Source of the DNA: Octopus vulgaris
Lineage: Eukaryota
Direction: 5' to 3'
Length of the DNA stretch: 64,000 nucleotides
Assembly: GCA_951406725.2 (NCBI GenBank)
Contig: OX597819.1
Location: forward strand, 1,736,001-1,800,000
Part shown: piece after piece, positions 19,942-58,800 of the stretch
Layout: every line of letters begins with the position of its first letter
Position numbering within the stretch: position 1 is the stretch's first letter
Translations under genes and position numbers: made by a program
Notes under the pieces: generated by a model
What the model saw: the letters and a program-made list of their open reading frames with translations, nothing else
Databases searched by the model: none
What the model was told of the DNA's origin: nothing

Positions 19942-20499
19942 TTAGGATTTTTAAGTATTTATTATGAATGTGTGATTGTTTATAAATTAAAATAATTAAT
20001 ACACGTATGGTAATGAGATTAGGGCTAGTGGAATATACATTTACGGAAGTTCGAATGCCAATGTTTCGTAAATTTAGAGTTATACTGTTCAAAAGAAAAT
20101 TAAAGTAGAAAAATATCAAATAAACAATTGTTGGCATTCAATATATATTAAAACTTTTAATTACTATGATTGCTAAATTAACACTTAAGGATTGATTATT
20201 TAAATATTTACTTATAAACTAAGAAATATATGAAAGGAAAAAAAATCTAGTCTTAAAATTACTTATGTTATAAAACAAAATAGAATTCATGTTTCTTAAA
20301 TTGAACAGTGACCATGACACATCACCGAAAGCGAAACTGCGTGAATATCAAAGAAATTTACTCAGAAAATTGAAACCAAATGATTGAGATGGGGCAAAAA
20401 CGGAAAAATAAATTAGCCAAACAGCACCTACCAATAACATAAAACTGACCCTCGCTCACTCAATTTCCATGTTTTATGCATATCTGGTTTATTTTACAG

Positions 20500-20586
20500 G
20501 AATGAACATTTTCGTCGCCTTTTTCGTCTTGTTGCTATTGCTGGCAGAATCCACTCCTCGGGCGGCCTCGTCCATTCCTTTAATAG
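20500..20586 (+). CDS. nAChR-family (Cys-loop) subunit, M2 / M2-M3 loop exon, alternative copy A: (G)MNIFVAFFVLLLLLAESTPRAASSIPLI(G)
   Basis: Acceptor ttttacag ends at 20499 and donor gtgagt starts at 20587. 87 nt, phase 1-1. Aligns to M2 from 4' through the conserved AE..P......PLIG of nAChRs, and splices in frame to the exon at 54608. Confidence 0.93.
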
Positions 20587-20626
20587 GTGAGTCAATCTCA
20601 TTTTCCACCACTTATTTATGTTACAG

Positions 20627-20710
20627 GAATGAACATTTTCGTCGCCTTTTTCCTCTTGTTGCTATTGCTGGCCGAGTCAGTCCCTCATGCCGCAACAGTT
20701 CCATTGATAG
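20627..20710 (+). CDS. nAChR-family subunit, M2 / M2-M3 loop exon, alternative copy B: (G)MNIFVAFFLLLLLLAESVPHAATVPLI(G)
   Basis: Acceptor gttacag ends at 20626 and donor gtgagt starts at 20711. 84 nt, phase 1-1, no stop codon. Paralogous to copy A, with mostly synonymous changes at conserved residues. Confidence 0.88.
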
Positions 20711-54607: not shown

Positions 54608-54726
54608 GTGCATATTTTTGCCTTAGTATGGTGATGATTACCCTATCCACAGTATTTGCTTGTGTTGTTGCGAATATGTTTTTCCGTGGTGTACGAGTGC
54701 ATAGAGCACCGTACTGGCTGCGTGCA
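54608..54726 (+). CDS. nAChR-family subunit, M3 exon: (G)AYFCLSMVMITLSTVFACVVANMFFRGVRVHRAPYWLRA
   Basis: Acceptor gtttcag ends at 54607 and donor gtaagt starts at 54727. 119 nt, phase 1-0. Hydrophobic M3 followed by the typical post-M3 V.N...R......P.W.R motif. Confidence 0.93.
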
Positions 54727-54791
54727 GTAAGTATTGTTTCACAAAAATTTATATCAACATTTTTAATACCTTTGATATTGTTTCAGAAGGA

Positions 54792-54875
54792 AAATTATAT
54801 AAGATTATTTATAAACTCCAAATTATATAAGATTATTTATAAACTCCAAATTATATAAGATTATTTATAAACTCA
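54792..54875. repeat. 28-bp tandem repeat, 3 copies (aaattatataagattatttataaactcc)
   Basis: Units start at 54792, 54820 and 54848, beginning 65 nt downstream of the M3 exon donor. Confidence 0.9.
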
Positions 54876-55149
54876 AAATTAATTAGATTACTCCCACTGC
54901 ATAATAGTTACTTATTTGTATTTATCTTAAAAACATAAAAAAGTTAAATTAAACCCAAGCGAACTTTTAACTCAGAGCATGAAAGAACATAAATTATTAC
55001 GACTGATCACATAATTCGATAATTCACCGTTTCTGAAAATGTATATTAATAATAACTTTCAACATGCGTTCAATGCTGCAAATTTTGATTTATTAACGCC
55101 AGTCCTTTGCCAACTACCAATATAAACGTGAAATTCACTGCCAGGCCAT

Positions 55150-58338: not shown

Positions 58339-58800
58339 GTTATGATTGACGGAATAGCGCGTGTCCTTTTTCTCCGCGACCAAGTGATGGACAAGAATCA
58401 TAAAGAACAATCCAAAATGCGAAACTGGAATGTAAAGGTGACTGGCGAAAATAACAAGAAATTTCCTGCAGCCGATGCGAAATTTGCGAAGGTGCGATTA
58501 CTTGAAAATAAAGACGAAAAAATGTCTGCATCATCGGATACACTTGAACCCTCGGTTCCTGATACGGTCATAGAACAACATGATGATAGACAGTCTCTGA
58601 TGCGCTCTGCCATTCTCGAAGAGGTCAAAGCTATCCGGGAAATGTTGGATAAAGTCCAAGAAAAAAAAATGAAATTGGAAGAACGTGAAAAATTGGTGCG
58701 AGAATGGCGAGTGATAGCTTGCGTTACAGATAGACTGTTTTTTATCGTGTACGTATTGGTCAACGTTATTGGGGTTCTAGTGATATTTGTTAGAAAATAA
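58339..58800 (+). CDS. nAChR-family subunit, terminal coding exon: intracellular loop, MA helix, M4 and stop (VMIDGIARVLFL...EWRVIACVTDRLFFIVYVLVNVIGVLVIFVRK*)
   Basis: Polypyrimidine tract and cag end at 58338. Phase 0 matches the previous exon. Contains the nAChR EW..A.V.DR.F motif before M4; TAA stop at 58798-58800. Confidence 0.94.
   Translation, partial: VMIDGIARVLFLRDQVMDKNHKEQSKMRNWNVKVTGENNKKFPAADAKFAKVRLLENKDEKMSASSDTLEPSVPDTVIEQHDDRQSLMRSAILEEVKAIREMLDKVQEKKMKLEEREKLVREWRVIACVTDRLFFIVYVLVNVIGVLVIFVRK

What the first reader, a model, noticed from the sequence alone, without database searches (positions are those of the whole stretch)
20500..20710. Tandemly duplicated, probably mutually exclusive pore (M2) exons in a nicotinic-family receptor, separated by only 40 nt
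Seen: two paralogous exons, A (20500-20586, 87 nt) and B (20627-20710, 84 nt), each ttacag|...|gtgagt, phase 1-1, open, and in frame with the M3 exon 34 kb downstream. The gap between them is 40 nt, and its best branch-point candidate (CUCAU, A20600) is only 14 nt into that gap. Both exon lengths are multiples of 3, so frame or NMD cannot prevent double inclusion. Established: donor-to-branch-point distances this short block splicing between two exons, a known mechanism of mutual exclusion; insect nAChR alpha6 has mutually exclusive exons 8a/8b/8c for the equivalent M2 segment. Inference: this mollusc gene switches between two channel pores. By alignment to alpha7 (G4'...E20') the isoforms differ at pore-facing 13' (Val in A, Leu in B) and in the M2-M3 coupling loop (STPRAASSIPLI vs SVPHAA-TVPLI; Arg vs His, one residue shorter). 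This could tune gating, desensitisation or conductance and would be convergent with insects. Gene predictors would probably annotate only one copy.
Basis: partly seen in the sequence, partly recalled or inferred. Interest (0 to 1): 0.92.

Follow-up and report, generated by a model that had tools for sequence, protein, structure and literature searches.

The report
Switchable pore exon, octopus chloride receptor
An octopus gene for what is probably an inhibitory (chloride) acetylcholine receptor carries two alternative copies of the exon for its pore helix, both used, and similar valine-versus-leucine exon pairs turn up in related receptors of other invertebrate groups, which points to a repeatedly evolved way of tuning these channels.

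Summary
Confirmed. Exons A (20500-20586) and B (20627-20710) are intact, 40 nt apart, the only two M2 copies in a 159-kb M1-to-M3 span. Both are spliced: assembled run contigs join A to M3 (2 of 3 runs) and B to M3 (3 of 3) at similar depth, with no A-to-B joint. RefSeq already lists A, B and skip-both isoforms for two Octopus species, so this is annotated, though I found no paper. They differ at one M2 position (13' Val/Leu) and five loop positions, tuning rather than 'two pores'. New: tandem M2 exons recur in this clade in a brachiopod, an annelid and 9 distinct genes on unnamed animal contigs; 8 of those 9 pairs are also Val/Leu at 13', in both orders, and the octopus gene lies in a different orthogroup (AU p 1e-43). 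Function is untested. The scan noted an alpha6-type pair in another genome before.

The parts
20500..20586 (+). M2 exon A (87 nt, phase 1-1): M2 4'-20' plus M2-M3 loop, Val at 13', loop STPRAASSIPLI; the family-typical form
   Evidence: contigs covering 20498-20589 with loose end equal to M3 exon in X1 and X5; RefSeq XP_052824820.1, XP_036360176.1
20587..20626 (+). 40-nt gap: A donor, branch-point candidates at A20600, A20614, A20618, B acceptor; its first ~28 nt are paralogous to the intron start behind B, so it is probably the remnant of a ~127-bp tandem duplication
   Evidence: bin depths leave no coverage for it in X1, X4, X5 (a hole in contigs proves nothing by itself)
20627..20710 (+). 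M2 exon B (84 nt, phase 1-1): Leu at 13', loop SVPHAATVPLI, one residue shorter
   Evidence: loose end equal to M3 exon in X1, X4, X5; RefSeq XP_052824821.1, XP_029637701.2 and four Logan proteins P0002, P0023-P0025
20711..20741 (+). B donor and downstream intron flank, paralogous to the flank behind A
   Evidence: local score reached by 0 of 20000 random intronic 29-mers and 58 of 20000 shuffles
54608..54726 (+). M3 exon (119 nt), common acceptor for A and B
58339..58800 (+). last coding exon (intracellular loop, M4, stop)
   Evidence: 100% identical to the O. bimaculoides RefSeq protein over 152 aa

Best explanation
The gene encodes an alpha-type (YACC) subunit of the lophotrochozoan Pro-Ala (anion-type) nicotinic receptor clade in an Octopus species. 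A tandem duplication of about 127 bp copied the M2 exon with short flanks, leaving only 40 nt between donor and acceptor. U1 at A's donor and U2 at B's branch point cannot both load, so A and B are not joined; each mRNA takes A, B or (less often) neither. SHOWN: structure, use of both exons, no A-B joint in three assembled runs, annotated skip form. INFERRED: steric exclusion; chloride selectivity from the linker motif; and that the two subunits differ in gating (EC50, open probability, desensitisation) through a bulkier residue in the 13' hydrophobic ring and a shorter M2-M3 coupling loop, while selectivity is unchanged. The same Val/Leu choice by tandem M2 exons exists in other paralogues of the clade in a brachiopod, annelids and bryozoan-like animals, most likely from separate duplications.
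For: Junction contigs A-M3 (X1, X5) and B-M3 (X1, X4, X5), no joints listed, A contig unbroken across its 3' junction in X1 and X5; contig depth A:B 72.7:41.5, 305:254, 24.4:30.3 against 4-10 in introns. Of 15 listed of 26 cluster members: 7 A, 3 B, 2 skip-both, 3 fragments ending at M1, 0 with both; a second cluster at 93-94% identity has B with an identical peptide in 4 of 4. Linker PPESPAKLQL; Pro-Ala defines Lymnaea and schistosome ACh-gated chloride channels (PMC4055736 passages); the octopus gene groups with Lymnaea PAK subunits. 13' maps to alpha7 V251, one of the three sites of the alpha7 anion mutant (PMC10941285 passages; alignment). Paralogous flanks. Recurrence: Lingula RefSeq isoforms V13'/28 aa vs L13'/27 aa; Dimorphilus model with two M2 exons run together, F13' then L13'; 13 of 116 metagenome loci carry two M2 exons, 9 distinct genes, 8 of them V/L. 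Octopus gene in a mollusc-only group (100/100), AU rejects one clade for genes with a pair.
Against: No functional data for either isoform; Val-to-Leu is conservative and Leu, Ile, Phe occur at 13' in single-exon paralogues (22, 7, 5 of 80 distinct 28-residue peptides). Logan contigs drop rare variants, RNA status of X1, X4, X5 is a guess, and the one raw-read run gave 0 reads, so low-level A+B joining is not excluded. No branch-point mapping and no octopus minimum-intron figure was obtained. Gaps in the other animals are 63-884 nt, so the steric mechanism is not general (only L120, 63 nt with CTAAC 18 nt from the donor, fits it). Splicing of the metagenome pairs was not shown. For insect alpha6 a functional difference 'remains elusive' (PMC6393475). 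The skip-both isoform suggests imperfect control.
Confidence: 0.7

Rival explanations
1. The exon pair is real and both are spliced, but the isoforms are functionally near-equivalent: a redundant duplicate tolerated because the 40-nt gap made it harmless from birth.
For: Only one conservative change within 4'-20'; 13' varies among single-exon paralogues; no measured difference known for insect exon 8 variants.
Against: B peptide is identical in proteins that are 93-100% identical overall; the single Val/Leu change is kept inside a tract where 12 of 12 synonymous codons are identical between A and B, against 2 of 9 in the 3' half (permutation 7 of 3000); 8 of 9 other gene pairs show the same V/L split.
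Confidence: 0.2
2. The A/B pair is ancient: an ancestral spiralian PAK gene already had V13' and L13' exons, and paralogues later kept one or both; the octopus copies look young because of gene conversion.
For: L13' exons of octopus, Lingula, Dimorphilus, L054, L056, L083, L142 all end VPLI and octopus B and the Lingula form are both one residue short; a third octopus paralogue constitutively has an 84-nt, L13', VPLL exon (L025); the mosaic of synonymous identity fits conversion.
Against: Octopus intron flanks are still paralogous; overall synonymous divergence is 7 of 21, below the 19 of 25 against a paralogue; both octopus exons have a basic residue after the loop Pro like their own orthogroup, not the Pro of the others; order is L-then-V in bryozoan-like loci but V-then-L in annelid-like loci and octopus; 6 of 8 loci spanning M1-M3 have one exon; many losses would be needed.
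Confidence: 0.2
3. Exclusion is enforced mainly by regulatory proteins or RNA pairing (docking site and selectors), not by geometry; the 40-nt intron could be spliced.
For: A conserved C/U-rich motif follows both donors; very short introns exist in some invertebrates (recalled); other animals keep pairs with gaps of hundreds of nt.
Against: Best pairing of the A motif anywhere in the span (-21.5 kcal/mol) is weaker than 6 of 8 shuffles; donor regions fold no better than shuffles (z -0.94, -0.29).
Confidence: 0.15
4. B is a decaying pseudo-exon or an assembly duplication.
For: Two O. vulgaris GenBank models and the Argonauta model carry only A.
Against: B-M3 junction in 3 of 3 assembled runs at depth similar to A; B isoforms in two RefSeq annotations and four Logan proteins.
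Confidence: 0.02

Closest known systems
Insect nAChR alpha6 mutually exclusive exons 8a/8b/8c (PMC1919356, PMC6393475, PMC2064938; passages seen)
   Same: Tandemly duplicated, alternatively used exon covering part of M2 in a nicotinic-family alpha subunit; conserved across species; function of the variants unresolved.
   Different: alpha6 is an alpha7-like cation-type subunit; this gene has the Pro-Ala linker and falls in a separate clade (octopus cation-type paralogues are outside it), so the duplication is independent. Two copies 40 nt apart, unequal length, inside 159 kb of intron. Insect exon boundaries and spacing were not fetched or compared here.
Lymnaea anion-selective nAChRs (van Nierop 2005, seen only as a reference title; text not held) and schistosome SmACC-1/2 (PMC4055736, passages)
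   Same: nAChR fold with YxCC, Pro-Ala before M2, same clade; exon A differs by one residue from the M2-exon peptide of proteins named type B.
   Different: No alternative M2 exon is mentioned in PMC4055736 (0 hits for 'splic'); the octopus gene is not the type B orthologue but belongs to a mollusc-only sister group that is triplicated as whole genes in gastropods (13' V, V, F).
Steric mutually exclusive splicing (57 of 629 human clusters with donor-to-branch point under 50 bp; PMC5740500 passages)
   Same: Donor-to-branch-point distance 14-32 nt; no frame or NMD safeguard.
   Different: Here the whole intron is 40 nt and seems to be the untouched remnant of the duplication; branch point not mapped.
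RefSeq isoform models XP_052824820-22.1 (O. bimaculoides), XP_036360176.1, XP_029637701.2, XP_036360178.1 (O. sinensis), XP_013418082-87.1 (Lingula)
   Same: They already encode A, B and skip-both (octopus) or both forms (Lingula).
   Different: Automated predictions under misleading alpha-3/alpha-10/alpha-5 names; no description found in the papers searched.

Membership tests
Mutually exclusive tandem exon cluster | Neighbouring paralogous exons encoding the same protein region with compatible phase and splice sites | tested here: met
Mutually exclusive tandem exon cluster | Each exon is spliced into transcripts | tested here: met
   junction contigs; RefSeq and Logan proteins
Mutually exclusive tandem exon cluster | The two exons are not joined to each other | tested here: met
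   no joint in 3 assembled runs, 0 of 12 listed full-length models with both; rare joining not excluded because contigs drop rare variants
Mutually exclusive tandem exon cluster | Exactly one exon is included (no double skip) | tested here: inconclusive
   skip-both models exist in both RefSeq sets (P0013, P0015); their abundance could not be measured
Steric (short donor-to-branch-point) exclusion | Branch point under 50 nt from the upstream donor | tested here: met
   whole gap is 40 nt; candidates at 14, 28, 32 nt; criterion
Steric (short donor-to-branch-point) exclusion | Lengthening the distance abolishes exclusion; branch point mapped | not testable with these tools
   needs minigene and lariat sequencing
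Lophotrochozoan anion-type nAChR (LnAChR-B-like / SmACC clade) | Pro-Ala in place of Gly-Glu before K0' | tested here: met
Lophotrochozoan anion-type nAChR (LnAChR-B-like / SmACC clade) | Groups with Lymnaea and flatworm Pro-Ala subunits within nAChRs | tested here: met
   quick tree, 59 rows apart from two octopus cation-type rows, SH-aLRT 99
Lophotrochozoan anion-type nAChR (LnAChR-B-like / SmACC clade) | Acetylcholine-gated chloride current | not testable with these tools
   needs expression and reversal potentials
Insect alpha6 exon 8 system (orthology) | alpha7-like cation-type subunit with GEK linker | tested here: not met
   linker is PAK; cation-type octopus paralogues L026, L028 fall outside. 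It works like alpha6 exon 8 but is not a member
Docking-site/selector MXE (Dscam type) | Common intronic site pairing with a selector beside each exon | tested here: not met
   no pairing better than shuffles over 1583 windows; no cross-species intron data, so weak

The most novel reading that the evidence does not exclude
Acetylcholine-gated chloride channels of lophotrochozoans have evolved the same splice switch at least three times (octopods; annelids, perhaps with brachiopods; bryozoan-like animals, in reverse order): a duplicated M2 exon offering Val or Leu at the 13' pore ring together with a changed M2-M3 loop. This would mark 13' plus loop as a natural tuning knob of inhibitory cholinergic signalling, set by cell type, with gastropods reaching the same end by whole-gene triplication, and with the octopus pair born exclusive because the duplication left only 40 nt.
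Probability: 0.4. Interest if true: 0.72.

Novelty: new variant of a known kind. Interest (0 to 1): 0.55.

Why it matters
Alternative M2 exons in nicotinic receptors were known from the insect cation-type alpha6 gene, where their function is unresolved. This is a case in the anion-type clade, with an unusually clean contrast (one pore-ring residue plus the coupling loop, both forms abundant), so two cDNAs and one swap mutant test what natural 13' and loop variation does to an inhibitory ACh channel. The recurrence of a Val/Leu pair in separate paralogues of several phyla suggests selection for that contrast. It also flags a common annotation trap (one model concatenates both exons, others keep one).

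Tried and rejected
No run on record as RNA was listed as a holder; the one raw-read RNA run laid 0 reads, no test. Third M2 copy in the 159-kb span: none (profile built from only 4 peptides, still E 1e-18 and 1e-15 for the two copies). Docking site or special RNA fold: none above shuffles. Second M2 copy beside the two other octopus PAK paralogues: none within 1.5 kb each side and none among 7 own-genome hits. Alternative M2 isoforms in annotated clusters of scallop, oyster, clam, abalone, Pomacea, Biomphalaria, Lineus, Watersipora, Owenia, Schistosoma: none among listed members, which is not absence, since the Watersipora M2 peptide is identical to the first exon of the paired loci L046/L099. 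Squid, cuttlefish and Nautilus orthologues were not returned by three protein searches, so the duplication is not dated. Wider context for the metagenome loci was not available. The careful 61-row tree did not finish; the quick tree is cited and a careful 24-row subset. Exon conservation against introns (0 exon differences; intron 11 of 592 in X5, 7 of 310 in X4) is too weak to use. van Nierop 2005 could not be read. Literature searches without a paper on this gene or on lophotrochozoan M2 exon pairs: (open library only; supplements not read). No structure or complex prediction was run: it could not resolve a Val/Leu gating effect.

Full report
Observation. The stretch occurs once in the own genome. 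The upstream exon lies outside the window and ends at G000:C6:1631827, so the pair sits alone between introns of 124,672 and 33,897 nt, and no third copy was found in 264 kb.

What the gene is. The last exon is 100% identical to O. bimaculoides RefSeq proteins, so the window is from an Octopus species. The protein is an alpha-type subunit (YACC) whose M1-M2 linker reads PPESPAKLQL; alignment to human alpha4 puts PAK on GEK and confirms 13' and the loop deletion. Pro-Ala at this place is the defining motif of the Lymnaea and schistosome acetylcholine-gated chloride channels, which form a clade inside the nicotinic receptors (PMC4055736, passages). In a quick tree all PAK rows stand apart from two octopus cation-type rows, and the window's gene falls in a mollusc-only group with bivalve orthologues and three gastropod paralogues (100/100 in a careful 24-row tree). 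It is therefore a predicted chloride channel, and since the motif is in the constitutive exon both isoforms share it. Chloride selectivity itself is inferred.

Are both exons used? Yes. In three assembled runs from three coded organisms and three studies (RNA status guessed by the tool), contigs cover A and B separately; loose ends behind 20589 (X1, X5) and 20713 (X1, X4, X5) are the M3 exon 34 kb away; no joint was listed, and in X1 and X5 the A contig runs unbroken into M3, leaving no A-to-B branch in those graphs; contig depths A:B were 72.7:41.5, 305:254 and 24.4:30.3 against 4-10 in introns (depth is a poor measure of expression and contigs drop rare forms). The fourth run, raw reads, laid nothing. 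Among 15 listed of 26 members of the main cluster, 7 carry A, 3 carry B, 2 skip both, 3 are fragments, none carries both; four Logan proteins at 93-94% identity carry an identical B peptide; two O. vulgaris GenBank models and the Argonauta model carry A only. So RefSeq already holds A, B and skip-both for O. bimaculoides and O. sinensis.

How exclusion probably works. Any branch point in a 40-nt intron is under the 50-nt distance used to call steric interference (57 of 629 human clusters; PMC5740500, passages); the three YTNAY candidates are 14, 28 and 32 nt from the donor. The intron sequence behind A resembles that behind B (0 of 20000 random intronic 29-mers, 58 of 20000 shuffles reach the score) and the acceptors match, so the gap looks like the remnant of a tandem duplication of about 127 bp that was exclusive from birth (inference). 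A docking-site search and local folding gave nothing above shuffles. The branch point is unmapped and the octopus minimum intron length was not measured.

What differs. From 4' to 20' only 13' differs (Val/Leu); the other five differences are in the M2-M3 loop. 13' is alpha7 V251, one of three sites in the alpha7 anion mutant (PMC10941285, passages); that it faces the pore and that the loop couples binding to gating is recalled knowledge. A and B share 12 of 12 synonymous codons in the 5' half but 2 of 9 in the 3' half (best split reached by 7 of 3000 permutations), and the single Val/Leu base change survives inside the identical tract, which fits homogenisation or strong constraint with selection to keep 13' different. 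Against this, Leu, Ile and Phe occur at 13' in 22, 7 and 5 of 80 distinct 28-residue peptides of the clade (the 27-residue forms were outside the pattern), so Leu is ordinary for the family, and no functional test exists.

Recurrence elsewhere. Lingula RefSeq isoforms of a different paralogue alternate between a V13' 28-residue and an L13' 27-residue M2 segment (3 and 1 of 4 members). A Dimorphilus gene model has two M2 exons run together, F13' then L13'. A pattern scan of metagenome contigs returned 116 loci, mostly animal genomic DNA; 13 hold two M2 exons on one strand, 9 distinct genes after removing near-identical loci, gaps 63-884 nt; 8 of the 9 differ as Val/Leu at 13' (L029 is Leu/Leu). 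L054 and L103 span M1-M2-M2-M3; 6 other loci spanning M1 to M3 have one exon; most loci were too short to tell. Order is V-then-L in L054, L056/L087, L083, L142 (annelid-like; L054 groups with the Dimorphilus gene at 93/94) and L-then-V in L045/L107/L130, L046/L099, L103, L120 (bryozoan-like; L103 and L046 group with Watersipora). These are related loci, not independent events, and their splicing was not shown. L120 has a 63-nt gap with CTAAC 18 nt from the donor. An AU test rejects one clade for octopus, Lingula, Dimorphilus, L054, L103 and Watersipora (p 1.45e-43; the group was chosen after the first tree was seen). This shows different orthogroups, not by itself separate origins; separate origin of the octopus pair is favoured by its paralogous flanks, its orthogroup-type basic loop residue and the reversed order elsewhere, while the shared VPLI ending and one-residue deletion keep an ancient-pair reading alive (about 0.2).

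Comparison with what is known. Insect alpha6 has mutually exclusive exons 8a/8b/8c that include part of TM2, conserved for about 300 million years, with function unresolved (PMC1919356, PMC6393475, PMC2064938; passages). The octopus case works like it but is not orthologous. Convergent exon duplication in ion channels is an established theme (Copley 2004, seen only as a reference title). Six searches of the open library and passage searches in PMC6896357 and PMC13174522 found no description of this isoform pair or of M2 exon pairs in anion-type receptors; subscription papers and supplements were not seen. The scan's notes hold an alpha6-type pair in another genome, not checked here.

Verdict. 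New variant of a known kind; interest 0.55.

Noticed in passing
RefSeq models P0013 (XP_052824822.1) and P0015 (XP_036360178.1); genomic join G000:C6:1631827 to window 54608: An in-frame isoform skipping both M2 exons is annotated in both Octopus species; it would lack the pore helix and could be noise or a dominant-negative subunit.
   Followed up: partly
L025 (G000:C1:177373683-177373784, minus strand): A third octopus Pro-Ala paralogue has a single 84-nt M2 exon with Leu13' and a VPLL ending, i.e. constitutively B-like; the type-B-like paralogue (L023) is constitutively A-like.
   Followed up: partly
   Followed up: partly
L046:2099-2191 (also L099): A strongly diverged 93-nt second M2 exon with intact AG/GT sites, two residues longer, Ala at 9' and Tyr at 8' and 11'; its partner exon equals the annotated Watersipora peptide, so that annotation may miss an exon.
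   Followed up: partly
L029:1038-1589, L031, L109, L113, L115: A subgroup of M2 exons carries Lys or Arg near 16'-17' (for example LLLKLL, LLLRIL), a basic ring at the outer pore of anion-type receptors; L029 has two such exons in tandem.
   Followed up: no
P0106 (Dimorphilus DgyrCDS7085): The public gene model concatenates both M2 exons, probably an annotation error; P0003 and P0026 (O. vulgaris) lack the stretch from the Cys-loop to M1.
   Followed up: partly
G000:C6:1576013-1627311: The RefSeq isoforms also vary at the N-terminus (an optional upstream exon near 1576013 and a 5-residue variant), so the gene has further alternative splicing.
   Followed up: no
window 54790-54880: A short tandem repeat of about 27 nt (three copies) lies just behind the M3 donor.
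   Followed up: no
L056, L083, L142 second exons: The Leu13' exons of these three loci are more alike in codon choice than their Val13' partners, hinting at nucleotide-level constraint on the alternative exon; not quantified.
   Followed up: no
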